DNA of 64,000 nucleotides, taken from the IMG/VR virus record IMGVR_UViG_3300045988_086533, positions 5,140 through 69,139 of that record. One strand, 5' to 3'. The first letter of the stretch is position 1, and every line of letters begins with the position of its first letter. This document shows, piece after piece, positions 11,466 through 61,875 of this stretch. The notes under the pieces are model-generated. The model had not been told where the DNA came from. It saw only the letters and a program-made list of their open reading frames with translations, and searched no databases. The position numbers were made by a program, and so were the translations under genes. Source of the DNA: a virus.

Positions 11466-11494
11466 TTGATTAATTATATAAGTAGATGTATAAT
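11466..11494 (+). promoter_or_regulatory. sigma-A (sigma-70)-type promoter
   Basis: TTGATT-17 nt-TATAAT immediately after a terminator. Spacer AATTATATAAGTA is shared with the promoters at 50256 and 61127. Confidence 0.6.
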
Positions 11495-50255: not shown

Positions 50256-50284
50256 TTGAATAATTATACAAGTAGTAGTATAAT
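50256..50284 (+). promoter_or_regulatory. sigma-A-type promoter
   Basis: TTGAAT-17 nt-TATAAT after the endolysin terminator. Confidence 0.6.
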
Positions 50285-50318
50285 ATAAGTATAAAATATA
50301 AATAAGGGGATGTTAATA

Positions 50319-50486
50319 ATGAAAACAGGCGACAAATTAATACACATAATAAGTAATAAAATATACACAGTAGGATATATGTATAGTGAGGACGATACAG
50401 ATGCCGTATTAGTTGATGAGAATGGAGTTGCAGCTATATATCCTATGAAATTAATTAGAGGTTGGTTCAGAGTATATGAAGAATAA
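50319..50486 (+). CDS. hypothetical protein (55 aa)
   Basis: Not in the track. AAGGGGA SD. First gene after the sigma-A-type promoter at 50256. Confidence 0.4.
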   Translation: MKTGDKLIHIISNKIYTVGYMYSEDDTDAVLVDENGVAAIYPMKLIRGWFRVYEE

Positions 50487-50510: not shown

Positions 50511-52154
50511 ATGAAATTAAAAATAGACAAAGGAATAAAGTTTAGAGGTAGTTCACTATTCATTAAAATAGTCGGTGATGAGTTAGAATATTTAGATGTA
50601 ATTAGATCATTCAACTGTTATTACCATAAGAATAAAAATATGTGGGAACTCCCAAAAGGGGCATTTAAAACTATATTAGATAAATGCAGGGATTGTAATA
50701 TTGATATAGTCGGTAAAATACCCAAAGAATTTGAGAATTATTTAAAATTACTGGACAACTACGATAAACCACTGGCTGAATATAAAAGTAAAACTACACC
50801 ATATAGTTATCAGATGGATAGTTTTTTATATTCCAGAGACCATACAAAATTTTTACTTGCGGACGAACAAGGTCTTGGTAAAACAAAACAAGCCTTAGAC
50901 ATAGCAGTGAGTAAAAAAGGACAAATGAAACATTGTCTTATAGTTTGCGGAGTCAACGAATTGAAGTGGAACTGGGTAAATGAAGTATCAGTACATACTA
51001 ATGAACAAGCACATATATTAGGATTTAAGGATGGTAAAATTGGTAGTGTACATGATAGGTTATTAGACCTACAAAATAAACATGAGGAATTTTTCCTGGT
51101 TACTAATATTGAAACACTACGTGACACTAAAATACAGGAATACATAAAAATACTTTGTACGTGCGGTGTAATAGGTATGACCATTATAGATGAGATCCAC
51201 AAGTGCAAAAACTCTACCAGCATCCAAGGTAAGGCCATCCATTGTTGTTGTTCTTATTATAAGTTGGCGCTTACAGGAACACCAATAATGAATGCTGCTA
51301 TAGATTTATACAATGTACTGAAATGGCTAGAGGTAGAAAACCACAGTTTAACTCAATTTAAAAACCATTACTGTATCATGGGTGGCTTTGGTGGATACCA
51401 AATAGTGGGTTACAAACATTTAGATGAGCTGCAAAGTAGACTAGACAAATATATGCTAAGACGTAGAAAAGAAGATGTATTAGACTTACCACCTAAAATA
51501 TACACTAATGAGTTACTGGAGATGGATGCAGGCCAAACTAAAATATACAAAGAAGTAGAACAAACTATACAAGATAATATTGATAAAATACTTCTATTAC
51601 CGAATCCATTAACTGCTCTAACACGTTTGAGACAAGTTACAGGTAATCCAGATATTCTGACTACACATAAAGTAAACAATGTAAAATATAAACGTATGGT
51701 GGAGATAGTGTATGAAGTGGTTAATAATGGAGGTAAAGTGATTATTTTTAGTAACTGGGCGAGGGTGATTGAACCGGCTGCGGAACTACTAGAAATGTAT
51801 AACCCAGCCTGTATAACCTCTCAAGTGAAGGACAAGGATAAATTACTCAAGGAGTTTAAGGAAAACCCTAAATGCAAGGTTATATTAGGTACAATAGGGT
51901 GTCTAGGTACTGGTTTTACTCTTAATGAAGCTAATACGGTGATCTTCTTGGATGAGCCGTGGAGTAGTGCAAATAAACAACAGGCTGAGGACAGATGTCA
52001 TAGGATAGGAACAAAGGGGACAGTAAATATTATTACTCTAATATGTAAGGATACTATAGACGAAAAAGTACATAATATAGTAAAAAGTAAACAAGCACTA
52101 TCTAGCGAGGTAGTGGATAATAAAAAATTATTTAAGGATATAATGGAGGGATAG
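50511..52154 (+). CDS. SNF2-family helicase/translocase
   Basis: ADEQGLGKTKQAL (motif I), DEIHKCKN (DExH), QAEDRCHRIGT (motif VI). Confidence 0.8.
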   Translation: MKLKIDKGIKFRGSSLFIKIVGDELEYLDVIRSFNCYYHKNKNMWELPKGAFKTILDKCRDCNIDIVGKIPKEFENYLKLLDNYDKPLAEYKSKTTPYSYQMDSFLYSRDHTKFLLADEQGLGKTKQALDIAVSKKGQMKHCLIVCGVNELKWNWVNEVSVHTNEQAHILGFKDGKIGSVHDRLLDLQNKHEEFFLVTNIETLRDTKIQEYIKILCTCGVIGMTIIDEIHKCKNSTSIQGKAIHCCCSYYKLALTGTPIMNAAIDLYNVLKWLEVENHSLTQFKNHYCIMGGFGGYQIVGYKHLDELQSRLDKYMLRRRKEDVLDLPPKIYTNELLEMDAGQTKIYKEVEQTIQDNIDKILLLPNPLTALTRLRQVTGNPDILTTHKVNNVKYKRMVEIVYEVVNNGGKVIIFSNWARVIEPAAELLEMYNPACITSQVKDKDKLLKEFKENPKCKVILGTIGCLGTGFTLNEANTVIFLDEPWSSANKQQAEDRCHRIGTKGTVNIITLICKDTIDEKVHNIVKSKQALSSEVVDNKKLFKDIMEG

Positions 52155-52157
52155 AAT

Positions 52158-52436
52158 ATGAAAATAATAGATGGAAATATGTATTATAGTTTAACAGAGA
52201 TAGGGTCTATTATTGGTAGAACTAAAGCTACCATTTTAAGATGGTATGAGTATGAAGATCAGTTACCTGTAGAACAACGTAGATTACCAAACTACATAAC
52301 ATTAGGACAACAACACGCTAAATATTTTGCGGCACATGACATTGACACATTTACTGAGTTCATGAAAACTAATAAAAGAGGGACTATGAAAAATGTCAGT
52401 GATAAATACAACGGTAACTTAGCAAATAATAAATAA
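52158..52436 (+). CDS. small HTH DNA-binding protein (MerR/excisionase-like)
   Basis: YYSLTEIGSIIGRTKATILRWYEY helix-turn-helix pattern. Confidence 0.4.
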   Translation: MKIIDGNMYYSLTEIGSIIGRTKATILRWYEYEDQLPVEQRRLPNYITLGQQHAKYFAAHDIDTFTEFMKTNKRGTMKNVSDKYNGNLANNK

Positions 52437-52452
52437 ATTATATACTATATAT
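52418..52452 (+). promoter_or_regulatory. phage-specific promoter motif, copy 7
   Basis: CTTAGCAAA-N14-TATACTATATAT. Overlaps the end of 52158..52436. Precedes 52531. Confidence 0.5.
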
Positions 52453-52460
52453 AGGGATAT

Positions 52461-52499
52461 AACCTCATAGAACCTACCTAAAATAGGTTTTATGGGGTT
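52461..52499 (+). promoter_or_regulatory. 5'-leader stem-loop
   Basis: 16-bp stem AACCTCATAGAACCTA / TAGGTTTTATGGGGTT. The two G-U pairs only work on the + strand RNA. No T-run follows. Confidence 0.45.
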
Positions 52500-52530
52500 C
52501 ATAGATTAATTACTTAAGGAGGCTAAAAAA

Positions 52531-52914
52531 ATGAAGGACTTAGGGGTTTTATTAAGTGAGTTAGCTGAAATAAAAGAACTCAATAAAAAGAATAAAGAGA
52601 TTGAAAACAACTTGATTAAAGACACTAAAACTATGTTAGATGAGAAGGGTATTACTAAAGGAGAATACGATGGCATAAAAGTTTCTTATACTACTAATAC
52701 TAAAAGTGAGTTAGATGATAACATCCTTATAGAGATATTATTAAATATGGCACAAGAAAAACCTGAAATAATGGACTGTCTAATTAAAACATATACTGTA
52801 GATGAAGATAAGTTGGAAGAATTAATGTATGGGGGTCTAATAAGTACTGACGACATAGCTCCAGCTTATAGAGAGAAACAATATAAAACTTTAAGAGTAA
52901 AGAGGGTGAAATAA
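52531..52914 (+). CDS. hypothetical protein
   Basis: TAAGGAGG SD. 127 aa. Confidence 0.5.
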   Translation: MKDLGVLLSELAEIKELNKKNKEIENNLIKDTKTMLDEKGITKGEYDGIKVSYTTNTKSELDDNILIEILLNMAQEKPEIMDCLIKTYTVDEDKLEELMYGGLISTDDIAPAYREKQYKTLRVKRVK

Positions 52915-53273
52915 TGGCTCTACCTGGATTTAATGTTAATAAAGTACCAACTGTACAAACTAAATTAATAGAAGAAATTATAGACTATCTTAATAATAGA
53001 GCAGGAACTAAATATAAACATGATGCTAAAAATACTGTCAAATATATTTCCGCCCGACTAAAAGAAGGTTATACATTAGAAGATTTTAAATATGTGATTG
53101 ATGTAAAAATAGCTGAGTGGGGTGGAACTAATATGGAAATGTATATTAGACCACAAACTCTATTTAGTTCTAAAATGGAAAACTATGTTAATCAACCTAT
53201 GCCACGTAGTAATCGTGCTAGTTATCAAGTTGAAAATGATTATAAACACGACACAACTAATAGAAGGATTTAA
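52914..53273 (+). CDS. conserved phage C-terminus (Phg_2220_C) domain protein, DnaD-type replication accessory
   Basis: IIDYLNNRAGTKYK..ISARLKEGYTLEDFKYVID.KIAEW..YIRPQTLFS matches the recalled family consensus closely. Confidence 0.6.
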   Translation: MALPGFNVNKVPTVQTKLIEEIIDYLNNRAGTKYKHDAKNTVKYISARLKEGYTLEDFKYVIDVKIAEWGGTNMEMYIRPQTLFSSKMENYVNQPMPRSNRASYQVENDYKHDTTNRRI

Positions 53274-53296: not shown

Positions 53297-53331
53297 GTTA
53301 GTAAAACGCTCAAATTTTCTATACTATATAA
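53297..53331 (+). promoter_or_regulatory. phage-specific promoter motif, copy 8
   Basis: GTTAGTAAA-N14-TATACTATATAA. Confidence 0.5.
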
Positions 53332-53369
53332 AAAAACCTTTTTTAAAATAAAAATTTTTTAAATTTGTA

Positions 53370-53404
53370 GTTAGTAAAATCGCAAATAATTCTATACTAT
53401 ATAT
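53370..53404 (+). promoter_or_regulatory. phage-specific promoter motif, copy 9
   Basis: GTTAGTAAA-N14-TATACTATATAT. Precedes 53512. Confidence 0.5.
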
Positions 53405-53460
53405 AGATATTAAATATTAGTTATCCTAAAAATAAATAAAGAATCCCGCAATGGGAGATT

Positions 53461-53483
53461 ATTATGCAACAAAGTTGCATAAT
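53461..53483 (+). promoter_or_regulatory. 5'-leader stem-loop
   Basis: Perfect 10-bp stem ATTATGCAAC / GTTGCATAAT with a 3-nt loop, between promoter copy 9 and the SD of 53512. Confidence 0.4.
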
Positions 53484-53511
53484 TCTTTTCAACTAAAAAA
53501 GGAGGAATATT

Positions 53512-53778
53512 ATGATAAGTACTAATAATTATTTGGTGGTGACTCCAAACAACTATTTTTTATGCAATGATGTTAGACACATTATTAATAGTATAAAACA
53601 CAGTTGTTATAGATTAAATGGTCATCAACTACAAAACTTTAATAAACTTATTACTAGACATATAGAGAGAGCTGATTGGAATAAACCAATAAAGAAACAA
53701 AAGTATATCATTAAAGATGATATATATGTAGTAAAGTTAGATAAAGATGAAATAAAAATGTTTTTTAGGGGGTGTTAA
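53512..53778 (+). CDS. hypothetical protein
   Basis: AAAGGAGG SD. 88 aa. Confidence 0.5.
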   Translation: MISTNNYLVVTPNNYFLCNDVRHIINSIKHSCYRLNGHQLQNFNKLITRHIERADWNKPIKKQKYIIKDDIYVVKLDKDEIKMFFRGC

Positions 53779-53780
53779 TT

Positions 53781-54587
53781 ATGGACGAAAAATACAAAAT
53801 ATATAATGGTGATTGCTTAGAGGTTATGGATAAACTGATTGAGCAGGGAATAAAAGTTGATGCAGTAATATGTGATCTTCCATACGGAATAACTGGATAT
53901 AAGTGGGATAGTGTAATTCCATTTAATAAAATGTGGGATAAAGTGAATAAATTAATTAAAGCTGATTGTGCAATTGTATTATTTGGACGTGAACCTTTTA
54001 CAAGTGCATTAAGAATGAGCAATATAAGCAATTATAAATATGAATGGTACTGGAATAAAATTAGTAGTGGTAATTTTGTAGGGGCAAAATTTGCTCCTTT
54101 TAAAATAATTGAAAATATTTGTATTTTTAGTAATGGGAAATGTCCCTATAATCCACAAATGATAGAACGAACTGAAAAAGAAATAAATGATTATATTGCA
54201 AAGAGTCGTAATAATAATATTACAGTTAAAAATGATTATTTATATGATGGATTTAAAAGTGGTGTCATTGTGCCTTCATCCAACCCTAAATATAAATATC
54301 CCGTTAATTTATTAAATTTTAACTGGAAAGCTAAAGAATGTAATAGTAGATATAGAGTGCACCCAACCCAAAAACCAGTAGATCTACTTGAGTATTTAGT
54401 TAAAACTTATACCAATGAAGGTGATTTAATATTAGACTTTACAATGGGGAGTGGCAGCACAGGAGTAGCTTGTTTAAATACTAACCGTAGATTTATTGGA
54501 ATAGAAAAGGAAGAAAAGTATTTTATTATAACCAAAGAGCGACTAGAAGATGCTAAATTGAATAATAGACAAAAGAAATTATTTTAG
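53781..54587 (+). CDS. beta-class DNA methyltransferase (N6A/N4C family), motif IV DLPY
   Basis: Motif IV (CDLPYG) near the N-terminus and motif I (FTMGSGSTG) near the C-terminus. Ends ..NNRQKKLF. Confidence 0.8.
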   Translation: MDEKYKIYNGDCLEVMDKLIEQGIKVDAVICDLPYGITGYKWDSVIPFNKMWDKVNKLIKADCAIVLFGREPFTSALRMSNISNYKYEWYWNKISSGNFVGAKFAPFKIIENICIFSNGKCPYNPQMIERTEKEINDYIAKSRNNNITVKNDYLYDGFKSGVIVPSSNPKYKYPVNLLNFNWKAKECNSRYRVHPTQKPVDLLEYLVKTYTNEGDLILDFTMGSGSTGVACLNTNRRFIGIEKEEKYFIITKERLEDAKLNNRQKKLF

Positions 54588-54600
54588 TGGAGGAATAATT

Positions 54601-54840
54601 ATGAATGATATAGAACTAACTAAGCAGAGACAAAAAGAAATAGCTAAATATGGTAAACGACAAGGTTTTCCAATTTGGGTATGTTTTAAGATGAATTATT
54701 TAGGTGATATAACAGAGATTAAGACATTCTTTACTGCAAGTGCTAAAGATGAGTATATTAGTCAAAAGGTAGATGATTATAACTTTGTAGCATATCTGAC
54801 ATATTCCAATGATGTTAAAAAAGTTTCATATTCTATTTAA
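54601..54840 (+). CDS. hypothetical protein
   Basis: GGAGGA SD. 79 aa. Confidence 0.5.
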   Translation: MNDIELTKQRQKEIAKYGKRQGFPIWVCFKMNYLGDITEIKTFFTASAKDEYISQKVDDYNFVAYLTYSNDVKKVSYSI

Positions 54841-54862
54841 ATGCGAGGGAGATGAGTTTTTT

Positions 54863-55555
54863 ATGAATAATGAAAACTATGAATTATATCAAGGTGATTG
54901 CTTGGTCGTTATGGATAAACTGATTGAGGATGGGATAAAAGTAGATGCAGTAATATCAGATCCACCTTATGGGATGGAGTTTAAAAGTAATCGTAGAAAG
55001 GAAAAATATGAAAAAATTAGTAATGATGATGATTTATCATTTTTAGATGAATATTTTCAAAAATGTAATAGGCTGTTAAAAGATGATACTCATATATATT
55101 GCTTTTGTAGTTGGCATAATATAGATAAATTTAAGATTGCCTTTGAAAAATACTTTACATTAAAAAATATAATAGTATGGGAAAAGAATAATGCATCTAT
55201 GGGTGATTTGTATGGATCATATGCTCCTAAGCACGAATTTATATTATTTGGGCATAAGGGGAGAAGATTAAGAAATGGTAAAAGATTACCGGATGTTATA
55301 CAAGCCAAAAGAACTGGAAATAAATTACATCCAACACAAAAACCCGTTGATTTATTAGAGATTTTTATAAAACAATCAACAAATGAAAATGATGTAATTT
55401 TAGATTCATTTATGGGTAGTGGTAGCACTGGGGTTGCTTGTTTAAAAACCAAAAGGAGATTTATAGGCATTGAAAAAGAGGAAAAATATTTTAATATAAC
55501 TAAAGAACGACTAGCATATGCTAGCTTAAATAATAGACAAAAAAAATTATTTTAG
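54863..55555 (+). CDS. beta-class DNA methyltransferase, motif IV DPPY (likely N6-adenine)
   Basis: SDPPYG and FMGSGSTG. ATG at 54863. Ends ..NNRQKKLF. Confidence 0.8.
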   Translation: MNNENYELYQGDCLVVMDKLIEDGIKVDAVISDPPYGMEFKSNRRKEKYEKISNDDDLSFLDEYFQKCNRLLKDDTHIYCFCSWHNIDKFKIAFEKYFTLKNIIVWEKNNASMGDLYGSYAPKHEFILFGHKGRRLRNGKRLPDVIQAKRTGNKLHPTQKPVDLLEIFIKQSTNENDVILDSFMGSGSTGVACLKTKRRFIGIEKEEKYFNITKERLAYASLNNRQKKLF

Positions 55556-55556
55556 A

Positions 55557-55591
55557 GTTAGTAAACTGTATAGTTTTTCTATACTATATAT
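55557..55591 (+). promoter_or_regulatory. phage-specific promoter motif, copy 10 (P1 of cassette A)
   Basis: GTTAGTAAA-N14-TATACTATATAT. Starts 2 nt after the methyltransferase stop. Confidence 0.55.
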
Positions 55592-55595
55592 GTAA

Positions 55596-55642
55596 CTTAT
55601 TATTAAATTATTTTATTATTTTAATTTTTATTATTTTCTTAT
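55596..55642 (+). repeat. AT-only iterated tract (ATTATTTT-type units)
   Basis: cttattattaaattattttattattttaatttttattattttctt. Confidence 0.5.
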
Positions 55643-55726
55643 ATGACCCAGTAGTGTATAATAAGAGAGTAGGTGATTAACTTCATATAACCAACTAAGA
55701 AATTATTAACAATCCCCATATTTATA

Positions 55727-55760
55727 TTCCAACGGCTTGGTAACCCGTTGGAATTTTTTT
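55727..55760 (+). terminator. intrinsic terminator of cassette A RNA
   Basis: TTCCAACGG / CCGTTGGAA stem followed by T7. Confidence 0.65.
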
Positions 55761-55770
55761 ATTTATTTTA

Positions 55771-55805
55771 GTTAGTAAAATTTGGTATTTTTATATACTA
55801 TATTT
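55771..55805 (+). promoter_or_regulatory. phage-specific promoter motif, copy 11 (P2 of cassette A)
   Basis: GTTAGTAAA-N14-TATACTATATTT. Precedes 55844. Confidence 0.5.
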
Positions 55806-55843
55806 GTAACACAAGATAAATAAAATTTGGAGGAGTGATTTAT

Positions 55844-56539
55844 ATGAGATTAAATTTAATAGGTAATGAAGCTGATAGACAACTTGTATTAGCTAAGGAA
55901 CAAGAAGGGAAAATAAATTTAGTTAACCTACTTAAGAAATATGGTGATGTAGTAGATTATATGACTGAACCAATGGTAGCTAATTTTTATGGAGTGCCAA
56001 ATAAAACTATTAAAACGTTAGCAACTAGAAATGAAAGTGAGTTAAAAGGATATGGATATAAAGTATATAAAAAAAGTGAAATCCTAAAGTTTCAAGATGA
56101 AACTTTAGAGAATGTACCAAATAGAGGATTAAGATTATATCCAACTAAAGCGGTAATAGTGGTAGGTATGATGTTAACTGATAGTCCAGTTGCCGAACAA
56201 TTAAGAAGGGATATAATGGACATATTATTTGGCAAGGAAGTTGCGATACCAACTGAGAGCACTATTAGAAATGTAGTTAGTACTGAACTTGACAAAAGAG
56301 TACCACAATTGGTTGGGTGTAAAGATGCTCAAGTAAAAGCCATTGTTAAAGCCATTAAAGGTAATTTATTTATTAAAACTAAAAAACAAGATTATGCAAA
56401 TTATGAGACTGTAGTAGCATGGTTATTAGGGAAATATGGTGTGTATAAATTAGAGGATATACCATTTAGTGATGACTTATATGTTGAGATAAAAGATTTT
56501 GTTAAGAAATTACATCCAAGACAAAAAAGATTATTTTAG
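55844..56539 (+). CDS. ORF6N/Rha-like DNA-binding domain protein (putative regulator/antirepressor)
   Basis: ATG at 55844 after GGAGGAG. MVANFYGVPNKTIK..NRGLRLYPTKAVIVVGMMLTDSPVA resembles ORF6N. Ends ..RQKRLF. Confidence 0.45.
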   Translation: MRLNLIGNEADRQLVLAKEQEGKINLVNLLKKYGDVVDYMTEPMVANFYGVPNKTIKTLATRNESELKGYGYKVYKKSEILKFQDETLENVPNRGLRLYPTKAVIVVGMMLTDSPVAEQLRRDIMDILFGKEVAIPTESTIRNVVSTELDKRVPQLVGCKDAQVKAIVKAIKGNLFIKTKKQDYANYETVVAWLLGKYGVYKLEDIPFSDDLYVEIKDFVKKLHPRQKRLF

Positions 56540-56541
56540 TA

Positions 56542-56576
56542 GTTAGTAAAACACAACTTTTTTCTATACTATATAT
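56542..56576 (+). promoter_or_regulatory. phage-specific promoter motif, copy 12 (P1 of cassette B)
   Basis: GTTAGTAAA-N14-TATACTATATAT. Confidence 0.55.
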
Positions 56577-56670
56577 GTAAGGGAAATAACCCCTCCCTTA
56601 CATACACAACCCCTTAATATTTTATTTTTTACCCCGGTACCTATTCCCCCTTTGGTATCGGGGGTTTTTT
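56577..56670 (+). ncRNA. candidate small RNA B
   Basis: 5' hairpin GTAAGGGA/TCCCTTAC, AACCCCTT box, terminator. No ATG within it. Ends are approximate. Confidence 0.4.
56632..56670 (+). terminator. intrinsic terminator of cassette B RNA
   Basis: CCCCGGTACC / GGTATCGGGG stem followed by T6. Confidence 0.6.
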
Positions 56671-56674
56671 CTTT

Positions 56675-56709
56675 GTTAGTAAAATTAGAATTTTTAATAT
56701 ACTATAAGT
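56675..56709 (+). promoter_or_regulatory. phage-specific promoter motif, copy 13 (P2 of cassette B)
   Basis: GTTAGTAAA-N14-TATACTATAAGT. Precedes 56727. Confidence 0.45.
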
Positions 56710-56726
56710 AAAGGGAGGTTTTGCAT

Positions 56727-57440
56727 ATGTATGATGTAAAAGATTTTAAATTTATTAAAAATAGATGTTGGTTTAGGACTAACTGTCCTATGTATAATAC
56801 AAAGGACTGCAATTGTAGTTGTAGTGTATATTTTCAGTATTACTATTTAGTTAATCTAGCAAATATACCACCAAATAAGCAGCAACCGGAGGACTTGAAG
56901 TTGAGCGCTGGAGATGACCTTAAAAAGTATGAATATCTTAATGGTGTGAAGAATAATATTAATGAATTTGTACATGATGGATGTAATCTATATTTATACA
57001 GTCCTTACTTTGGTAATGGTAAAACTACTTGGTCCATAAAGTTGATGAGCAAATATTTTAGTAATATTTGGAATGGCAATGGCACTCGTTGTAGAGGTCT
57101 ATTCATCAATGTAGATGAATTTCTAATGGCTAAAAGAAATGCCATAAAACGACCTGACTTAAGACTAGAAGAAATGGAAAAATTAATCCCAAGCGTAGAC
57201 CTTATAGTATGGGATGACATAGGAGTTACAAAATTAAAAGAATATGACCATCAAATATTATTCAGTTTAATCAATCCTCGTATAGTAAATAACAAAGCTA
57301 ATATATTTACTAGTAATGTTATTGATGAACAATTGGATGATAATATTGGGGGTAGATTGGCAAGCAGAATATTAGATACAAGTACAATAGTTGAATTTAC
57401 TAACAAGCCACAAAGGAAACCAAAAGGGGTGAGAATATAA
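56727..57440 (+). CDS. DnaC/IstB-like AAA+ helicase loader with N-terminal Cys cluster
   Basis: Walker A FGNGKTT and Walker B LIVWDDIG. Directly upstream of DnaB. Confidence 0.6.
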   Translation: MYDVKDFKFIKNRCWFRTNCPMYNTKDCNCSCSVYFQYYYLVNLANIPPNKQQPEDLKLSAGDDLKKYEYLNGVKNNINEFVHDGCNLYLYSPYFGNGKTTWSIKLMSKYFSNIWNGNGTRCRGLFINVDEFLMAKRNAIKRPDLRLEEMEKLIPSVDLIVWDDIGVTKLKEYDHQILFSLINPRIVNNKANIFTSNVIDEQLDDNIGGRLASRILDTSTIVEFTNKPQRKPKGVRI

Positions 57441-58735
57441 TGGTACAATTGCAAGCCATAAATGATATATTAAATAATAATAACTTGGATCAATACACAG
57501 GCCAAGGAATAACAAAAGAGTACTTCAAGGACTATCAAGAAGAATTTGAGTTTATAAGTACCCATTTTAGAACTTATGGAAAAGTACCTGACTGGGAAAC
57601 ATTCATGGGAAAATTTCCGGACTTTGATGTCGTGGAAGTATTAGAGCCATTAAAATATATTATATATAACCTTAAGGAAAATTATTTATTTGATCAGGGG
57701 GTTTCATTATTTCAATCTAGCGGTGATATATTAGAACAGAACGCCTTTGATGGCTTACAACACATAGTAACAAGAGCACAACGTCTACTAGATCAAACGG
57801 TACAAAGTGGTGGTGTAAATATTAACAACATGGTAGATGAGAAAATAAAGGACTTAGAGAATAAACGTGCTAAAGGTGGTATGCTTGGAATTGGAAGTGG
57901 CTTACCTGAATTAGATAAGATACTTAATGGATGGCTGCCTGGCGAAGAATTAGTTACTATAGTTGGTAGAGTTAATCAAGGTAAATCTTGGTTGCTACAA
58001 AAGTTTTTAACCGAAGCCAACAAACAATATAAAAAAGTACTCCATTACAGTGGTGAAATGGGGGTATTACAAGTGGCATATAGAAATGATACATTAGGTA
58101 TGAACTACACTAACTCCCAATTAATGAGGGGTACAATAGGTGATGGTGACTATAAACAATATATTAACGACCTAGAAACTAATAAAGAATTACCACCATA
58201 TATAGTAGTAACTCCGGTAGACTTTGGAGGTAAAATGTTAACTGTATCTAAATTGAGAGCACTTATAAAAGAGTATAAACCGGATATAGTTGGTATAGAC
58301 CAGATATCATTAATGGAAGATGAACGACGTGGAAAGGGAGATCAAACAAGAACACAGTACACACATATAGCTCAAGATTTATTTAATATTAGTATAGAAT
58401 TTAGCATTCCAATTATAGTGGATGCCCAAGCCAACCGTAATAAGGCGGATATAGATAAGCCGGAAAACCCCGAACTTGCTGATATAGGAGAGAGTGATGG
58501 CATTGCACAAAATAGTAGTAGAGTAATTTCTTTAGTACAAACTAAAGCGGGGTTGAGCCTTAAAATAACTAAAAATAGATATGGCGAAAATAATAAGCAG
58601 CTACTATATGTGTGGGATATAGATAATGGTATATTTACTTTTGTAACTGAACAACTGGAAGATGGAGCTGACATTGAGCCACAACTACCTTTGAAAAATA
58701 AAAATAAAATAAATGATGTAACTGATGTATTTTAA
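57440..58735 (+). CDS. dnaB: replicative DNA helicase (DnaB-like)
   Basis: GSGLPELD, Walker A GRVNQGKS, IDQISLM, and a RecA-like C-terminal domain. Confidence 0.8.
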   Translation: MVQLQAINDILNNNNLDQYTGQGITKEYFKDYQEEFEFISTHFRTYGKVPDWETFMGKFPDFDVVEVLEPLKYIIYNLKENYLFDQGVSLFQSSGDILEQNAFDGLQHIVTRAQRLLDQTVQSGGVNINNMVDEKIKDLENKRAKGGMLGIGSGLPELDKILNGWLPGEELVTIVGRVNQGKSWLLQKFLTEANKQYKKVLHYSGEMGVLQVAYRNDTLGMNYTNSQLMRGTIGDGDYKQYINDLETNKELPPYIVVTPVDFGGKMLTVSKLRALIKEYKPDIVGIDQISLMEDERRGKGDQTRTQYTHIAQDLFNISIEFSIPIIVDAQANRNKADIDKPENPELADIGESDGIAQNSSRVISLVQTKAGLSLKITKNRYGENNKQLLYVWDIDNGIFTFVTEQLEDGADIEPQLPLKNKNKINDVTDVF

Positions 58736-58763
58736 AAAAAATTATAAGGAGGAATTGAGGAAT

Positions 58764-59612
58764 ATGGAAATTATTAATGATAAATATAAATTATATCAAG
58801 GTGACTGCTTAGAGATTATGGATAAATTGATTGAGGAGAGAGTAGTAGTAGACTTAACTGTAACAAGTCCTCCCTACGATGATCTAAGGGATTATGAGAA
58901 CTCTTTAACATGGAATTTCGATATATTTAAGCAAGTAGCAAATAAATTATATAAAATAACTAAAGATGGTGGCGTGGTAGTGTGGATAGTTGGAGATAAA
59001 ACTAAGAATGGAAGTGAAACAGGAACATCCTTTAAACAAGCATTATATTTTAAAGAAATAGGATTTAATTTGCATGATACTATGATATATGAAAAGAATA
59101 CTAGCAGCTTTCCTGCAAGAAAAACTGGTAATAGATATACTCAAATATTTGAGTATATGTTTGTTTTTAGTAAAGGGAAACCCAAAACAGTAAATTTAAT
59201 TTGTGATAAACCTAATAAATGGGCGGGACATACAAATTGGGGGAAAAACACACAAAGAGATGAGAATGGTGATCTGAAAGAAACTAATAAAATTAAACCA
59301 GTACCTAAATTTTCTCCAAGAAATAATATATGGAGATATGTTGTTGGTAATAGTTTTAACACAAAAGATAAAATAGCACATAAACATCCAGCTATATTTC
59401 CTGAAAAGTTAGCTGAAGACCATATATTAAGCTGGTCAAATGAAGGAGATGTAATACTAGATTGTTTTATGGGGAGTGGTACTACTGGTAAAATGGCTTT
59501 ATTAAATAATAGAAATTTTATAGGAATCGAGAAAGTAGAAAGTTATTTTAATATATCTAAAGAGCGACTAGAATATGCTAAATTAAATAATAGACAAAAG
59601 AAATTATTTTAA
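58764..59612 (+). CDS. beta-class DNA methyltransferase, motif IV SPPY (possibly N4-cytosine)
   Basis: TSPPYD and FMGSGTTG. ATG at 58764. Ends ..NNRQKKLF. Confidence 0.8.
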   Translation: MEIINDKYKLYQGDCLEIMDKLIEERVVVDLTVTSPPYDDLRDYENSLTWNFDIFKQVANKLYKITKDGGVVVWIVGDKTKNGSETGTSFKQALYFKEIGFNLHDTMIYEKNTSSFPARKTGNRYTQIFEYMFVFSKGKPKTVNLICDKPNKWAGHTNWGKNTQRDENGDLKETNKIKPVPKFSPRNNIWRYVVGNSFNTKDKIAHKHPAIFPEKLAEDHILSWSNEGDVILDCFMGSGTTGKMALLNNRNFIGIEKVESYFNISKERLEYAKLNNRQKKLF

Positions 59613-59613
59613 A

Positions 59614-59648
59614 GTTAGCAAAATGGCAATTTTTTCTATACTATATAT
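59614..59648 (+). promoter_or_regulatory. phage-specific promoter motif, copy 14 (P1 of cassette C)
   Basis: GTTAGCAAA-N14-TATACTATATAT. Confidence 0.55.
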
Positions 59649-59748
59649 GTAGAGGAAATGTGGAGGCACATTCTTCTACTCATAATATAACTCCCCTTTT
59701 TTTACCCTGACATTGGAGCGGACAGTGTCAGGGGTTTTTATTTTTTTT
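59649..59748 (+). ncRNA. candidate small RNA C
   Basis: 13-bp 5' hairpin (59649..59679), AACTCCCCTT box, terminator. Same architecture as B. Ends are approximate. Confidence 0.4.
59705..59748 (+). terminator. intrinsic terminator of cassette C RNA
   Basis: CCCTGACA / TGTCAGGG stem followed by T-runs. Confidence 0.6.
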
Positions 59749-59757
59749 AATTTGTTA

Positions 59758-59792
59758 GTTAGTAAATTTAAATAATAAAATATAATATATTT
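59758..59792 (+). promoter_or_regulatory. phage-specific promoter motif, copy 15 (P2 of cassette C, degenerate)
   Basis: GTTAGTAAA-N14-TATAATATATTT. Precedes 59808. Confidence 0.4.
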
Positions 59793-59807
59793 AAAGGAGT
59801 TGATTAT

Positions 59808-59963
59808 ATGTTAACAGGTAAAAAAATAAGAGAAATGGAAATTGAAAAGGATTTAGTAAAAGAATTAAAATGGCTTATAAACAAAGCGGTGGATAATGGG
59901 GATTTATTATTTGAACACTTAGACCCATTGTTTGATTTATTATATAAAGTACAGGAGGGATAA
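59808..59963 (+). CDS. hypothetical protein (51 aa)
   Basis: Not in the track. AAAGGAG SD. Confidence 0.4.
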   Translation: MLTGKKIREMEIEKDLVKELKWLINKAVDNGDLLFEHLDPLFDLLYKVQEG

Positions 59964-59965
59964 TT

Positions 59966-60133
59966 ATGCTACATGAAAGATGTGAACAATGTGAGGAAAG
60001 ATTAGATTATGATTATATAGTTTTAGAGTTACCTGACTATTGCAGCTATAAGAAACTTAAGTTTTGTAGCACTGATTGCTTAGACGAGTGGATAGAAAAC
60101 TTTAGTAGATGGGAGTTGTGCGAGGATGATTAA
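59966..60133 (+). CDS. hypothetical Cys-rich protein (55 aa)
   Basis: Not in the track. GGAGGGA SD. CEQCE..CSTDC. Confidence 0.4.
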   Translation: MLHERCEQCEERLDYDYIVLELPDYCSYKKLKFCSTDCLDEWIENFSRWELCEDD

Positions 60134-61118
60134 TGTTAATGGTATGGAACTTGATACAACGTACCAACAGTTATTAATAGACCTAAAAGGTAGTTTAATG
60201 AGTAATGGAATATTCTTACTAAATGATATAAAACCCACAGGAGATAACATCATGATAACTTGTCCAATTCATAAAGACGGACATGAGCATAAACCCTCTT
60301 GTGGGGTTTCTATTGTACCGAAGTATCAGGGATCTAAACTAATAGAACCTGGGACAGTGCATTGTTTTACTTGTGGATATACTGCTTCACTAACCAGTTT
60401 TATCAGTTCTTGTTTTGGATATAACGATGGTGGAATATTTGGGAATAAATGGATTAAAGCTCAGTATAATACCGGCCTAACTGTTAAAACCCGTAAGGTG
60501 GGGCTAAATTTAAGTAGACGAAGAATTACTCAAGAAGACCTACCAAACGTGCCACAGGAGGTGTTACAAGGTTACAGATACACTGTTGGTTATATGTATT
60601 CGCGTGGTTTAACGGATGACATTATTGAACAGTTTGACATTGGATATGACCGTAGAGATGACTGCATAACTATACCAGTTCCCAATTTAAAAGGTGAGGT
60701 AAAATGGATACAACGTAGAAGTATTATAGGGAAAACCTACTATATACCAAGTGGGGTTAGTAAAACTGATTATCTATTAGGAGCAAGTGAAGTTATGAAA
60801 TTAAAACTATATAAACAACCAGTATATATAGTGGAATCTCCCTTTAATATGTTAACTCTTTGGAAGTTAGGACACCCAGCAATATGTTTATTTGGTACTG
60901 GAGGAGGGAATCAGTATGCTATGTTGAATAAGTTACCTATTAGACATTATATAATAGCATTAGATCCCGATGAAGCAGGTAAAAAAGGAAGTAGAAAATT
61001 ATTACATCATTTAGGTAAGACTAAGTTATTGAGCAAGGTAAACTACTTAGATAGTAGAGACATCAACGATTTAGACACGGAATTTAACAAATTAAAAATT
61101 TCACCAATAAACTTATAA
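60126..61118 (+). CDS. dnaG: DNA primase (DnaG-like: zinc finger plus TOPRIM)
   Basis: CPIHKDGHEHKPSC..HCFTCG zinc finger. TOPRIM-like VESPFN..ALDPDEAG. Confidence 0.75.
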   Translation: MINVNGMELDTTYQQLLIDLKGSLMSNGIFLLNDIKPTGDNIMITCPIHKDGHEHKPSCGVSIVPKYQGSKLIEPGTVHCFTCGYTASLTSFISSCFGYNDGGIFGNKWIKAQYNTGLTVKTRKVGLNLSRRRITQEDLPNVPQEVLQGYRYTVGYMYSRGLTDDIIEQFDIGYDRRDDCITIPVPNLKGEVKWIQRRSIIGKTYYIPSGVSKTDYLLGASEVMKLKLYKQPVYIVESPFNMLTLWKLGHPAICLFGTGGGNQYAMLNKLPIRHYIIALDPDEAGKKGSRKLLHHLGKTKLLSKVNYLDSRDINDLDTEFNKLKISPINL

Positions 61119-61126
61119 AAAAATAG

Positions 61127-61155
61127 TTGCATAATTATATAAGTAACAATATAAT
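61127..61155 (+). promoter_or_regulatory. sigma-A-type promoter in front of the second sigma gene
   Basis: TTGCAT-17 nt-TATAAT. About 50 nt nearly identical to the promoter at 50256. Confidence 0.6.
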
Positions 61156-61206: not shown

Positions 61207-61809
61207 ATGTTTAATGATGTAGTAAAAGTATATGGAATGGAACACACTGATGAGGAATTATTAAAAGATTACCAAGCAGGATTACATAATGAAGTTATTG
61301 CATATGTATTTGAAATGAATAAAAATTTATTTTACCAAGTAAGTAAAAAATATGTTGGTGTAAGTACCGACGAAGTTACAAGTATTATATTAGAACAAAT
61401 ATGGAAATGTTTTGAAAATTATAATCCTGAAAAGAATAGTAGTGGTAAATTAACTAGTATGATATGTGTTTATATTAAGAATGCTCTTAGAACTCTAACA
61501 CAAAGTAACTCAAGCAATAAGAGAAAAGCCAACAATGGTGATCAATGTACTCCAATGAGTTGCTTTGAAACAACTGAGGATAGATGGGAAGAAACAAGCA
61601 TTGAAGATGAATATGATAAAGTTGAATTATCTGATTTAGTTAATAAAGAAGATCTATCACCAAAACAACTTCAATACTGCATGGTGGCACTAGACCATAT
61701 GTGTGACTTACAACAATCTCATATGGCGAGAGAAATTGGAGTTAGCACTGCAGGTGTTGTCGGTATTAGAAGAGCATTACAAAAGAAATTAAATTATTTA
61801 TTAGGTTAG
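61207..61809 (+). CDS. sigma-70 family (ECF-sized) sigma factor
   Basis: Region-2-like FENYNPEK..LTSMICVYIKNALR. Region-4 HTH LSPKQLQYCMVAL..MAREIGVSTAGVVGIRRAL. Confidence 0.55.
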   Translation: MFNDVVKVYGMEHTDEELLKDYQAGLHNEVIAYVFEMNKNLFYQVSKKYVGVSTDEVTSIILEQIWKCFENYNPEKNSSGKLTSMICVYIKNALRTLTQSNSSNKRKANNGDQCTPMSCFETTEDRWEETSIEDEYDKVELSDLVNKEDLSPKQLQYCMVALDHMCDLQQSHMAREIGVSTAGVVGIRRALQKKLNYLLG

Positions 61810-61839
61810 TAAATAGGGAGGTCTTACTATACTATATAT
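61805..61839 (+). promoter_or_regulatory. phage-specific promoter motif, copy 16
   Basis: GTTAGTAAA-N14-TATACTATATAT. Overlaps the sigma gene stop and its terminator. Precedes nrdJ. Confidence 0.5.
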
Positions 61840-61851
61840 AGTAAGACTTTT
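61821..61851 (+). terminator. terminator after the second sigma gene
   Basis: GTCTTACTATA / TATAGTAAGAC stem followed by TTTT. Encloses the TATACT box. Confidence 0.5.
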
Positions 61852-61875
61852 TAATAGAATAAAGGAGGTAGTTGT

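What the first reader, a model, noticed from the sequence alone, without database searches (positions are those of the whole stretch)
55531..59792. Three copies of a cassette: promoter, ORF-less RNA with a C-rich box, terminator, second promoter
**What is seen directly.** The same ordered architecture follows three genes (stops at 55555, 56539 and 59612):
1. The last 7 codons (R-Q-K-K/R-L-F-stop) are 20-21 nt nearly identical at DNA level.
2. A full promoter motif (P1) ends ..TATACTATATATGTA.
3. In cassettes B and C a stable hairpin begins at or near the expected transcript 5' end (56577..56601 and 59649..59679); I did not see an equivalent in A.
4. A single-stranded-looking C-rich box is embedded in U-rich sequence (A: AACAATCCCCATATTT; B: ACAACCCCTTAATATTTT; C: ATAACTCCCCTTTTTTT).
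5. An intrinsic terminator follows.
6. A second, slightly degenerate promoter motif (P2) follows.
7. Then come the SD and the next gene.

No SD-preceded ORF fits inside any of the three. Cassettes B and C are about 95 nt. Cassette A carries an extra AT-only tract.

**Inference.** These look like a small family of phage sRNAs. Unpaired CCCC/UCCC boxes ahead of a terminator are the hallmark of SD-targeting sRNAs in Firmicutes (RsaE/RoxS type). Alternatively they are attenuator leaders that gate read-through into the DnaC/DnaB/primase genes.
Basis: partly seen in the sequence, partly recalled or inferred. Interest (0 to 1): 0.8.

Follow-up and report, generated by a model that had tools for sequence, protein, structure and literature searches.

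The report
Three phage small-RNA genes with anti-ribosome-site boxes
An uncultivated gut phage carries three conserved short non-coding RNA genes among its DNA-replication genes, each with its own promoter and terminator, and their exposed C-rich stretches are complementary to the ribosome-binding sites of the phage's own genes, so they probably switch those genes off.

Summary
Three intergenic cassettes (A 55556-55843, B 56540-56726, C 59613-59807) each hold a consensus phage promoter, an ORF-less 95-175-nt RNA, an intrinsic terminator and a second promoter.

- **Promoter motif:** it occurs 16 times, only on the + strand (0.02 expected).
- **C-rich boxes:** 7 of the window's 19 CCCC runs lie in these 372 nt.
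- **Conservation:** about 27 related contigs keep all three RNAs in the same order. Promoter spacers and third codon positions are 61-77% identical, against 83-99% for most RNA segments. Terminator stems change by compensatory substitutions.
- **Relationship:** only the promoters are repeated. The three RNA bodies are unrelated in sequence and match no Rfam family, RsaE included.
- **Shared RQK(K/R)LF tail:** it belongs to mobile methyltransferase genes and marks recombination at the promoters, as in T4 PeSL cassettes.

New result: RNA A's box pairs at 25 of 27 positions with the leader, Shine-Dalgarno site and AUG of gene 50319, the first gene after a host-type promoter (0/500 shuffles). The orthologous site ranks first in 10 of 12 relatives. 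C points to the same site, and B to the helicase-loader gene next to it.

Best reading: trans-acting anti-ribosome-site sRNAs. This rests on computation only.

The parts
55557..55594 (+). Cassette A, promoter P1 (GTTAGTAAA -35 region, TATACT -10 at 55580-55585, predicted start G 55592). It overlaps the stop codon of methyltransferase gene 54809-55555.
   Evidence: The -35 and -10 blocks are 98-99% identical in 15 diverged relatives, against 77% for the spacer.
55592..55760 (+). RNA A, about 170 nt. It comprises an AU-only tract (55592-55640), a predicted AU-rich 5' hairpin (about 55621-55680), a single-stranded anti-TIR box (55702-55728, CCCC at 55714), and a terminator stem (55726-55754) with U7 (55754-55760).
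   Evidence: Fold. Alignment of 17 sequences: 99.4% of cells paired, and 6 pairs with compensatory changes, 4 of them in the terminator. Identity of the AT tract is 0.989.
55702..55728 (+). A box, ATTATTAACAATCCCCATATTTATATT. It is antisense to 50295-50320, which holds the leader, Shine-Dalgarno site and AU of the AUG of gene 50319.
   Evidence: 25 of 27 positions pair, 38.3 bits. No dinucleotide shuffle reaches this score (0/500, maximum 32.7). Duplex energy is -26.8 kcal/mol, 0/300 shuffles.
55771..55802 (+). Cassette A, promoter P2. It restarts transcription for gene 55844-56539.
   Evidence: Identity is 0.97 for the -35, 0.92 for the -10 and 0.61 for the spacer.
56542..56579 (+). Cassette B, promoter P1 (predicted start G 56577). 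It overlaps the stop of gene 55844-56539.
56577..56670 (+). RNA B, about 95 nt. It comprises a 5' hairpin (56577-56601), a single-stranded box ACAACCCCUUAA (CCCC at 56610), and a terminator (56632-56663) with a C-rich loop UAUUCCCCCUUU, followed by U6.
   Evidence: z -3.7. Alignment of 18 sequences: 100% paired, one compensatory pair and one half-compensatory pair in the terminator. The C-rich terminator loop is kept in all relatives.
56675..56706 (+). Cassette B, promoter P2, for the DnaC-like loader gene (56727-57440) and dnaB (57440-58735).
59614..59651 (+). Cassette C, promoter P1 (predicted start G 59649). It overlaps the stop of methyltransferase gene 58764-59612.
   Evidence: In relatives this promoter directly overlaps the dnaB stop codon.
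59649..59748 (+). RNA C, about 92-100 nt. It comprises a 5' hairpin (59649-59679), an invariant single-stranded box UCAUAAUAUAACUCCC (59680-59695, CCCC at 59693), and a terminator (59705-59733) followed by a U run.
   Evidence: z -4.95. Alignment of 14 sequences: 98% paired. Identity of the single-stranded region is 0.96, against 0.76-0.87 for the local promoter spacers.
59758..59789 (+). Cassette C, promoter P2, for genes 59808-59963 and 59966-60133 and the primase gene 60126-61118.
50256..50321 (+). Predicted target of RNA A (and weakly of C). It is a host-type promoter Pe (TTGAAT-17-TATAAT, 50256-50284) followed by a roughly 28-nt leader, the SD AAGGGG and the AUG of gene 50319-50486 (55 aa). 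That protein is homologous to the N-terminus of the 186-191-aa 'gpE' of relatives.
56707..56734 (+). Predicted target of RNA B: the translation-initiation region of the DnaC-like gene (GTAAAGGGAGGTTTTGCATATG).
   Evidence: The loop and 3' arm of B's 5' hairpin rank this site first of 31-44 sites in 9 of 12 relatives. Duplex shuffles reach the real energy 0-1 times in 300 in four relatives and 17 in 300 in the window. A BLAST-score test is not significant.

Best explanation
Each cassette is an autonomous small-RNA gene embedded in the replication module of a roughly 70-kb phage of a low-GC Firmicute.

**How each RNA is made (inferred from sequence).** The consensus phage promoter P1 starts transcription at a G. 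The transcript folds at once into a 5' hairpin, which in Firmicutes protects RNA from 5'-exonuclease attack. It then exposes an AU-rich single strand that carries a CCCC/UCCC box, and ends at a strong intrinsic terminator. This gives a discrete RNA of about 95 nt (B, C) or 170 nt (A). Because the terminator stops all upstream transcription, a second promoter P2 directly after it restarts transcription of the next gene.

**What the RNAs do (inferred).** They act by base pairing with translation-initiation regions (TIRs) of the phage's own mRNAs, covering the Shine-Dalgarno site and the AUG so that the 30S subunit cannot bind.
- RNA A pairs with nearly the whole 28-nt leader, SD and AUG of the first gene behind the host-type promoter Pe (gene 50319 here, gpE in relatives). 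RNA C points to the same site less strongly. Together they would shut off that operon once the phage-specific promoters fire.
- RNA B pairs through its 5' hairpin loop and 3' arm with the TIR of the helicase-loader gene that follows it, holding loader synthesis down.

**Shown versus inferred.** Shown by computation: the architecture, conservation above neutral sites, structure-preserving substitutions, and the non-random complementarity of A. Inferred: that the RNAs are expressed, that pairing represses, and the temporal order of the two promoter classes.

**A separate point.** The repeated promoters also serve as recombination junctions for accessory genes. That accounts for the shared coding tail.
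For: **Promoters.** The motif occurs 16 times, against 0.02 expected, on the + strand only. The hexamer blocks are conserved while the spacers drift.

**RNA features.**
- The folds are stable, with unpaired boxes.
- CCCC is enriched at P about 4e-11.
- There are no conserved ORFs.

**Conservation.** All three RNAs sit in the same order in 17-18 IMG/VR contigs and about 10 metagenome contigs. Identity is 0.83-0.99 for A, 0.93-0.96 for C and 0.77-0.87 for B. Third codon positions of dnaB/dnaC are 0.69 and promoter spacers 0.61-0.77.

**Structure.** Compensatory changes occur in stems.

**Targets.**
- The A box pairs with the 50319 TIR at 25 of 27 positions. This came from an unbiased scan of the whole window, and 0 of 500 shuffles reach the score.
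- The orthologous gpE TIR ranks first of 29-164 TIRs in the window and in 10 of 12 relatives.
- Shuffled RNAs rank that TIR first only 2-5% of the time. They reach the real energy 1-4 times in 150 for A and 0 in 150 for C.
- For C, gpE ranks first in 7 of 12 relatives.
- For B, the dnaC TIR ranks first in 9 of 12 relatives.

**Precedent.** The design of 5' hairpin, unpaired UCCC in the most conserved part, and terminator is the published signature of SD-blocking sRNAs in low-GC Gram-positives (PMC2790875).
Against: - There is no transcript evidence of any kind. Start sites and 3' ends are predictions.
- All relatives form one tight clade (dnaB about 86-100% identical). Covariation for B and C therefore rests on one or two events, and the agreeing genomes are not independent.
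- In relatives the A and C complementarities are only 11-16 nt. Scored by BLAST against the whole 15-kb loci, they do not exceed shuffles. The same holds for B.
- The long 25/27 duplex exists only in the window's lineage.
- Several target tests were chosen after seeing the data.
- In the window, B and C have no significant phage partner in an unbiased scan. The targeted test of C against 50319 gives 6/300.
- TIRs of this phage share an A-rich leader, a G run and an AU-rich spacer, which favours any U-rich, C-rich RNA.
- B's anti-TIR segment is partly buried in its own hairpin.
- The host genome is unknown, so host targets could not be examined.
Confidence: 0.6

Rival explanations
1. The RNAs are real C-rich sRNAs, but their main targets are host mRNAs. 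They would act as functional mimics of RsaE/RoxS-type regulators that rewire host metabolism, and the phage-internal complementarities would be incidental.
For: - The 16-nt box of C is invariant in all relatives, yet the family's contigs hold no perfect partner for it.
- B and C have no significant phage partner in the window.
- Several C boxes resemble the 16S anti-SD sequence (sequence read).
- The C-rich box class is defined on host regulators (PMC2790875).
Against: - A's 25/27 match to a phage leader is far beyond chance.
- A, B and C repeatedly rank one specific phage TIR first in relatives.
- There is no homology to RsaE or any other Rfam sRNA.
- The host genome was not available to test this reading.
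Confidence: 0.2
2. The elements act in cis as termination or antitermination switches, either leader attenuators or nut/put-like sites. P1 transcripts would stop at the terminator early in infection and read through later, under a phage factor that recognises the 5' hairpin and box, to boost the loader, helicase and primase genes.
For: - The layout is a promoter-proximal hairpin, a conserved single-stranded box and a terminator directly upstream of replication genes. It resembles lambda pR-nutR-tR1-O/P (my own knowledge).
- Each C box could also pair with the G-rich 3' arm of its own terminator (read).
Against: - A conserved promoter P2 lies 5-25 nt after each terminator, so downstream genes do not depend on read-through.
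- Cassette A precedes a slot whose gene differs between relatives or is absent. In three relatives A is followed directly by cassette B.
- The minimum-energy folds show no competing antiterminator.
- No boxA-like GCUCUUUA sequence is present (read).
- This reading does not explain A's complementarity to a leader 5 kb away.
Confidence: 0.12
3. The cassettes are only promoter/terminator insulators and recombination modules, as in T4-type PeSL cassettes. The transcribed stretch between P1 and the terminator would have no function of its own and would be left over from past gene loss between two promoters.
For: - The promoters bound indels. The methyltransferase 58764-59612 is missing from a contig that is about 99% identical.
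- The A-B slot carries different genes, or none.
- An unrelated 231-aa protein shares only the 7-codon tail with the methyltransferases.
- The promoter at 61806 is fused to a terminator hairpin.
- PeSLs are described in PMC2839356 and PMC4122927.
Against: - The RNA bodies are much better conserved than promoter spacers and third codon positions.
- Stems keep pairing through compensatory changes.
- CCCC runs are enriched about 60-fold.
- The boxes match specific TIRs.
- PeSLs contain no conserved 90-170-nt transcribed body.

The recombination role is compatible with the sRNA reading rather than opposed to it.
Confidence: 0.12
4. Cassette A works at the DNA level. A strong promoter next to an invariant 49-bp AT-only tract would form a transcription-activated replication origin or unwinding element, comparable to the T7 primary origin (promoters followed by an AT-rich region).
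For: - The AT tract 55592-55640 is the most conserved segment of all, at 0.989 identity, higher than its proposed pairing partner at 0.90.
- It lies between a DnaD-like initiator-domain gene (52914-53273) and the loader, helicase and primase genes.
Against: - No iterons or other repeats lie around it.
- B and C have no such tract.
- The tract is inside a transcript that ends at a covarying terminator, and it is predicted to form the 5' hairpin.
- This reading does not explain the A box.
Confidence: 0.06

Closest known systems
C-rich-box sRNAs of low-GC Gram-positive bacteria (RsaE/RoxS, other Rsa RNAs, RNAIII hairpins; Geissmann et al. 2009, PMC2790875)
   Same: - A 5' hairpin and a Rho-independent terminator.
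- One or more unpaired UCCC/CCCC motifs in the most conserved part.
- Predicted pairing with Shine-Dalgarno regions to block initiation.
- RNA B also carries a C-rich terminator loop, as RNAIII and RsaE carry C-rich loops.
   Different: - No sequence or structure homology. Rfam gives nothing at the gathering threshold or at E<=10.
- The RNAs are encoded by a phage, not at a conserved chromosomal locus.
- The best predicted targets are the phage's own TIRs, with much longer pairing (up to 25 bp) than a typical seed.
Phage antisense RNAs that block ribosome-binding sites: P1/P7 c4 RNA (acts on the icd-ant RBS downstream in the same operon) and P22 sar RNA (ant). Recalled from my own knowledge, not checked in a paper here.
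   Same: - A short untranslated phage RNA that pairs with the RBS of a phage gene.
- Like c4, RNA B is encoded just upstream of its predicted target, and A acts on a separate transcript in trans.
   Different: - c4 is processed from a longer transcript, and sar overlaps its target on the opposite strand.
- Here each RNA has its own promoter and terminator on the same strand as all genes, and there are three of them.
- Those systems control immunity in temperate phages of enterobacteria. No lysogeny context was seen here.
PeSL (promoter-early stem-loop) cassettes of T4-type phages (PMC2839356, PMC4122927)
   Same: - Highly repeated strong promoters combined with terminator stem-loops in intergenic regions.
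- They sit at the borders of variable accessory genes, and indels between close relatives end in them.
- Upstream stop codons overlap the motif.
   Different: - In PeSLs the stem-loop lies within or next to the promoter, and no conserved RNA is made between two promoters.
- Here a conserved, structured 95-170-nt RNA lies between P1 and the terminator.
- The host group and the promoter sequence are different.
T4 RegB endoribonuclease (cuts GGAG in early-gene SD sites to end early translation). Recalled from my own knowledge.
   Same: The proposed outcome is the same: early-gene translation is shut off by removing access to the SD sites of early mRNAs.
   Different: RegB is a protein nuclease with broad GGAG specificity. 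Here the proposed agent is an RNA that pairs with one leader class. This is an analogy of function only.

Membership tests
RsaE/RoxS (Rfam RF01820) | Match to the family covariance model (sequence plus structure) | tested here: not met
   cmscan of the whole window at the gathering threshold gives 0 hits. cmscan of 55500-59850 at E<=10 gives no RsaE hit, only six chance-level matches far below their gathering scores.
RsaE/RoxS (Rfam RF01820) | Conserved chromosomal gene of Bacillales under redox/NO-responsive control | tested here: not met
   The locus is inside a phage replication module, flanked by methyltransferase, DnaC-like, DnaB and primase genes, with portal and tail genes elsewhere in the window. 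Regulation cannot be tested with these tools.
C-rich-box class of Firmicute sRNAs (class signature of PMC2790875) | 5' hairpin and classical intrinsic terminator | tested here: met
   Folds. Pairing is kept in relatives.
C-rich-box class of Firmicute sRNAs (class signature of PMC2790875) | Unpaired UCCC/CCCC motif in the most conserved part of the RNA | tested here: met
   The boxes are unpaired in the minimum-energy and consensus folds. The cores AACAATCCCCA (A), AA(C/T)CC(C) (B) and AACTCCC (C) are conserved in the relatives, with A and C invariant. CCCC enrichment is P about 4e-11.
C-rich-box class of Firmicute sRNAs (class signature of PMC2790875) | Pairing of the box with the SD/RBS of target mRNAs, blocking initiation | tested here: inconclusive
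   Pairing is predicted, not shown. A against 50319 gives 0/500 shuffles, and the same target ranks first in relatives. BLAST-score tests in relatives are not significant. There is no toeprint or reporter data.
PeSL promoter/stem-loop cassettes | Repeated strong promoter with an adjacent or overlapping terminator stem-loop in intergenic regions | tested here: met
   There are 16 promoter copies. A terminator lies directly upstream of each P2. At 61806 a hairpin overlaps the -10 box.
PeSL promoter/stem-loop cassettes | Indels and replacements between close relatives bounded by the cassettes | tested here: met
   Methyltransferase 58764-59612 is absent from the roughly 99% identical contig. The A-B slot is variable. 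The tail is shared by unrelated proteins.
PeSL promoter/stem-loop cassettes | The cassette consists only of promoter and stem-loop, with no conserved transcribed body | tested here: not met
   Conserved, structured RNAs of 95-170 nt lie between P1 and the terminator.
Trans-acting phage anti-RBS RNAs (c4-like) | Extended complementarity to the RBS of a phage gene on a separate or downstream transcript | tested here: met
   A pairs at 25 of 27 positions across leader, SD and AUG of gene 50319. B against the dnaC TIR forms up to 17 pairs in relatives, counted by eye, with duplex energies.
Trans-acting phage anti-RBS RNAs (c4-like) | Repression of the target shown genetically; RNA processing (RNase P for c4) | not testable with these tools
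   This needs infection experiments or reporter assays.
nut/put-type antitermination elements | boxA-like sequence with boxB hairpin, or the two-stem put fold, with downstream genes dependent on read-through | tested here: not met
   No GCUCUUUA-like boxA is present in the three RNAs (read). A conserved P2 follows each terminator. Cassette A is followed by a variable gene or none.

The most novel reading that the evidence does not exclude
The phage runs part of its gene-expression programme through RNA alone. sRNAs made from the phage-specific promoter class would silence the first operon transcribed from host-type promoters (A and C against the gpE leader). A third sRNA (B) would throttle the helicase loader encoded right behind it. 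The same sRNA genes would also act as insulated, promoter-bounded modules between which accessory genes such as methyltransferases are swapped. That would be an RNA counterpart of protein-based early shut-off such as T4 RegB, in a phage of gut Firmicutes.
Probability: 0.35. Interest if true: 0.7.

Novelty: new member of a known kind. Interest (0 to 1): 0.55.

Why it matters
Regulatory RNAs of phages that infect Gram-positive gut bacteria are almost unexplored, and these three match no Rfam family. If they work as proposed, they give a compact and testable case of a phage timing its own early genes, and dosing its helicase loader, by RNA pairing rather than by proteins.

The prediction is exact: a 25-bp duplex that can be broken and restored by compensatory mutations.

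The locus also shows that repeated promoters act as exchange points for accessory genes outside the T4 group. This is useful for reading mosaic phage genomes and for engineering insulated expression units in Firmicute phages.

Tried and rejected
- **Rfam.** Scans at the gathering threshold and at E<=10 found no family, including RsaE.
- **Cultured relatives.** megablast against GenBank phages found no close relative. Protein searches found only 35-44% relatives: phiCTP1, Dp-1 and Flasso.
- **Micro-ORFs.** On both strands, the only ORF preceded by an SD is a 15-codon one on the minus strand of C. It is frameshifted and changed non-conservatively in relatives. Rejected.
- **Homology among A, B and C.** Only the promoters align. 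'Three copies of one cassette' is rejected in the sense of homologous copies.
- **Further cassettes.** Pairs of promoters less than 400 nt apart across all loci give only A, B, C, one 42-nt tandem promoter and one gene-containing interval.
- **More distant relatives.** Loci with SNF2 at 40-49% identity lack the promoter motif altogether. A metagenome scan with the A box found about 10 more members, all at the same roughly 86% dnaB identity, among many chance hits.
- **Host identification.** The promoter motif has no hit in bacterial genomes. The endolysin search gives only a taxon hint: a Bacilli MAG at 68%, and Clostridium and Terrisporobacter at about 50%.
- **Exact target of the C box.** In viral contigs, only the sRNA gene itself matches in the family.
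- **B against other TIRs.** B against the TIR of the possible sigma-factor gene gives inconsistent results. B's single-stranded region against gpE is not significant.
- **Whole-locus BLAST-score tests in relatives.** None is significant for A, B or C.
- **Strict co-variation of the A-box variant (ATTATTAAC or ATTAATAAC) with the TIR variant.** It is only partial. All 3 genomes with the second variant fit, and 7 of 10 with the first.

Full report
**What is there.** The window is a 32% GC phage genome with every gene on the + strand. It has portal and tail genes and a replication module. No close cultured relative exists. The nearest proteins are 35-44% identical to those of Clostridium phage phiCTP1, Streptococcus phage Dp-1 and Bacillus phage Flasso. 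The endolysin points to Clostridia or Bacilli as host.

The finding covers three intergenic regions:
- A, 55556-55843
- B, 56540-56726
- C, 59613-59807

Each begins at the stop codon of the upstream gene with the motif GTTAG(T/C)AAA-N13-CTATACTATATATGTA. The core of this motif occurs 16 times in the window, always on the + strand and always in front of a gene or one of these RNAs. Chance would give 0.02 copies.

**Anatomy.**
- Transcripts starting at the G seven bases after the TATACT box would fold into a 5' hairpin at 56577-56601 in B and 59649-59679 in C.
- The hairpin is followed by about 30 unpaired AU-rich bases holding a CCCC box, and then a canonical intrinsic terminator.
- Fold z-scores are -3.7 for B and -4.95 for C.
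- Cassette A is longer. The consensus fold of 17 homologues pairs much of its AU-only tract with downstream sequence in a long 5' hairpin at about 55621-55680. This hairpin comes before the unpaired box and the terminator.
- A second copy of the promoter motif (P2) follows each terminator within 5-25 nt, and then come the Shine-Dalgarno site and the next gene.
- CCCC is very rare on this strand: 19 in 64 kb, of which 7 fall within these 372 nt (P about 4e-11).
- No ORF in the cassettes is both preceded by an SD and conserved (read).

**Comparative evidence.** A scan of IMG/VR with the promoter pattern recovered about 20 contigs of 41-72 kb, and a metagenome scan added about 10 more, some from human gut. 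All that cover the region carry A, B and C in the same order. I used 15 relatives whose dnaB is about 86% identical, so third codon positions and promoter spacers serve as near-neutral yardsticks.

| Segment | Identity |
|---|---|
| Third codon positions of dnaB/dnaC | 0.69 |
| Promoter spacers | 0.61-0.77 (0.87 for C-P1) |
| Promoter -35 and -10 blocks | 0.87-1.00 |
| RNA A, AU tract | 0.99 |
| RNA A, middle | 0.90 |
| RNA A, box region and terminator | 0.83 |
| RNA C | 0.93-0.96 |
| RNA B | 0.77-0.87 |

Where stems vary, they stay paired:
- In A, 99.4% of cells are paired and six pairs change on both sides, four of them in the terminator. Only 4 of 500 shuffles reach six such pairs.
- In B, 100% of cells are paired, with one compensatory and one half-compensatory pair.
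- C varies too little to give covariation.

The clade is tight, so these are few independent events. Even so, both promoters, the terminators and the RNA bodies are clearly under selection.

**What the repeats are and are not.** The three RNA bodies share no detectable similarity, and only the promoter modules repeat. The 7-codon tail RQK(K/R)LF is the C-terminus of three paralogous N6/N4 DNA methyltransferases: 53772-54587, 54809-55555 and 58764-59612.
- The tail also ends the unrelated 231-aa protein 55844-56539, which shares nothing else with the methyltransferases.
- It occurs once with no cassette after it, at 54555-54586.
- The third methyltransferase is absent from a contig that is otherwise about 99% identical. 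In that contig, and in all other relatives, cassette C's promoter overlaps the dnaB stop codon directly.
- The slot between A and B holds different genes in different relatives. In three relatives it holds none, so A's terminator is followed at once by B's promoter.

The repeated promoters are therefore recombination junctions for accessory genes, as described for PeSL cassettes of T4-type phages (PMC2839356, PMC4122927). The tail is a scar of that process, not part of the RNA unit.

**What the RNAs may pair with: RNA A.** The reverse complements of the three unpaired boxes all read like ribosome-binding sites, with an A-rich stretch, a G run, 6-8 AU-rich bases and then ATG. An unbiased search of the whole window for complements gave one outstanding hit. 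A's box 55702-55728 pairs at 25 of 27 positions with 50295-50320.
- The score is 38.3 bits. In 500 dinucleotide shuffles the mean is 23.9 and the maximum 32.7.
- The duplex energy is -26.8 kcal/mol, reached by 0 of 300 shuffles.

The target is nearly the whole leader, the SD AAGGGG and the AU of the AUG of gene 50319-50486. This is the first gene behind a second promoter class, Pe (TTGAWTAATTATAYAAGTAG...TATAAT). Pe is close to the sigma-A consensus and has three copies in the window, at 11466, 50256 and 61127.

The 55-aa product of gene 50319 is homologous to the N-terminus of a 186-191-aa protein, here called gpE, that occupies the same position in relatives. With each genome's own A box, the gpE initiation region ranks first among 29-164 candidate initiation regions in the window and in 10 of 12 relatives. 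That region is not generally sticky: shuffled RNAs rank it first in 2-5% of trials and reach the real energy in 1-4 of 150.

**RNA C and RNA B.**
- C's box ranks the same gpE site first in 7 of 12 relatives and in the top three in 10 of 12. No shuffle reaches its energy (0/150). In the window the test gives 6/300.
- For B the unpaired box has no convincing partner. The loop and 3' arm of its 5' hairpin, however, are antisense to the initiation region of the DnaC-like gene that follows the cassette.
- That site ranks first in 9 of 12 relatives. Shuffles reach the real energy 0-1 times in 300 in four relatives and 17 in 300 in the window.
- In some variants I count up to 17 consecutive pairs, counting G-U.

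**Limits of the target evidence.**
- In relatives the A and C matches are 11-16 nt. Scored by BLAST over whole 15-kb loci, they are not above shuffles, and neither is B.
- The agreeing genomes are closely related, and some tests were framed after seeing the data.
- I therefore rate A's target in the window lineage as strong. The conserved A and C to gpE relation and the B to loader relation are moderate.

**Mechanism proposed.** The cassettes are autonomous sRNA genes. P1 makes a short RNA that is capped by a protective 5' hairpin and ends at the terminator. P2 is needed because that terminator insulates the next gene.

The RNAs would block ribosome access to specific phage messages. A and C would act on the first cistron of a Pe operon (gpE, followed here by an SNF2 helicase, 50511-52154). 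B would act on the helicase loader. A Pe-driven 200-aa protein (61207-61809) hits a phage sigma-factor family (PHROG 351, E 1.6e-8, no Pfam support). This would fit a cascade in which Pe genes come first and the TTAGTAAA-type promoters second, but the order is an inference.

**Rivals.**
- *Host-directed sRNAs* cannot be excluded, because the host is unknown.
- *A cis-acting attenuator or nut/put-like switch* is disfavoured by the conserved P2, by A lying before a variable or empty slot, and by the lack of alternative folds or boxA-like sequence.
- *A pure PeSL-like insulator* is disfavoured by selection on the RNA bodies.
- *A DNA-level role for A's AT tract* (0.989 identity, next to replication genes) remains a minor possibility.

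**Comparison with known systems.** In design and proposed action these RNAs belong to the class of C-rich-box, SD-blocking sRNAs of low-GC Gram-positives (PMC2790875). In logic they resemble phage anti-RBS RNAs such as P1 c4. They are not members of RsaE/RoxS or any other Rfam family. They are best filed as new members of a known kind, with an unusual and precisely testable self-targeting prediction.

Noticed in passing
window 11466-11494, 50256-50284, 61127-61155: There is a second, distinct promoter class, 'Pe' (TTGAWTAATTATAYAAGTAG..TATAAT). It is close to the sigma-A consensus, has a conserved spacer and is preceded by T/A runs. In relatives it drives an amidoligase (PF12224), gpE and the 200-aa protein, and the genes behind it share a conserved ribosome-binding region GG(G/A)G(A/T)TGTTA(A/T)TAATG.
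   Followed up: partly
window 61207-61809: This Pe-driven 200-aa protein hits PHROG 351 'RNA polymerase sigma factor' (E 1.6e-8) but no Pfam family. It could be the factor that reads the TTAGTAAA/TATACTATA promoters or the late promoters.
   Followed up: partly
window 61806-61852: The promoter copy at 61806 is overlapped by an 11-bp hairpin (GTCTTACTATA / TATAGTAAGAC, 61821-61847) followed by T5. This is a terminator for the 200-aa gene fused to the -10 box of the next promoter, the exact PeSL arrangement.
   Followed up: no
window 53298-53511: Two full promoter copies lie 42 nt apart (53298, 53371), and the arrangement is conserved in 10 relatives. The second has a roughly 110-nt leader with two hairpins, one terminator-like (53461-53483), in front of gene 53512. 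This may be a cis-acting leader.
   Followed up: partly
window 52419-52530: The promoter copy at 52419 is followed by a near-perfect 46-nt hairpin (52458-52503, z -2.7) in the leader of gene 52531.
   Followed up: no
window 53772-54587, 54809-55555, 58764-59612: Three paralogous N6/N4 DNA methyltransferase genes are present. Most relatives lack all three, and the third is missing from a contig about 99% identical to the window. They look like recently acquired, promoter-bounded anti-restriction cargo.
   Followed up: partly
window 55844-56539 and the A-B slot in loci L001, L029, L031, L037, L039, L046, L053, L057: The gene between cassettes A and B differs between relatives or is absent. The window's 231-aa protein has no Pfam or PHROG match and carries the methyltransferase-type tail RQKRLF.
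   Followed up: partly
window 55655-55662: A TG-extended -10 box (TGTATAAT) lies inside cassette A, downstream of the AT tract, and is conserved in 14 of 17 relatives. It could give a shorter A RNA of about 95 nt from host polymerase.
   Followed up: no
window 55592-55640: This 49-nt A/T-only tract is 98.9% identical across relatives, more conserved than any coding position class and more than its predicted pairing partner. The hairpin model does not fully explain this.
   Followed up: partly
window 52914-53273: This 119-aa protein matches replication-initiation and DnaD-like helicase-loader families (PHROG 428, E 9e-35). Together with the DnaC-like, DnaB and primase genes it defines the replication module that the three RNAs interrupt.
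   Followed up: no
loci L132, L175, L183, L200 and others: Members of this phage clade occur in human-gut metagenome assemblies as contigs of about 68-72 kb. The 17-nt A-box pattern also gave many unrelated chance hits in environmental contigs.
   Followed up: partly
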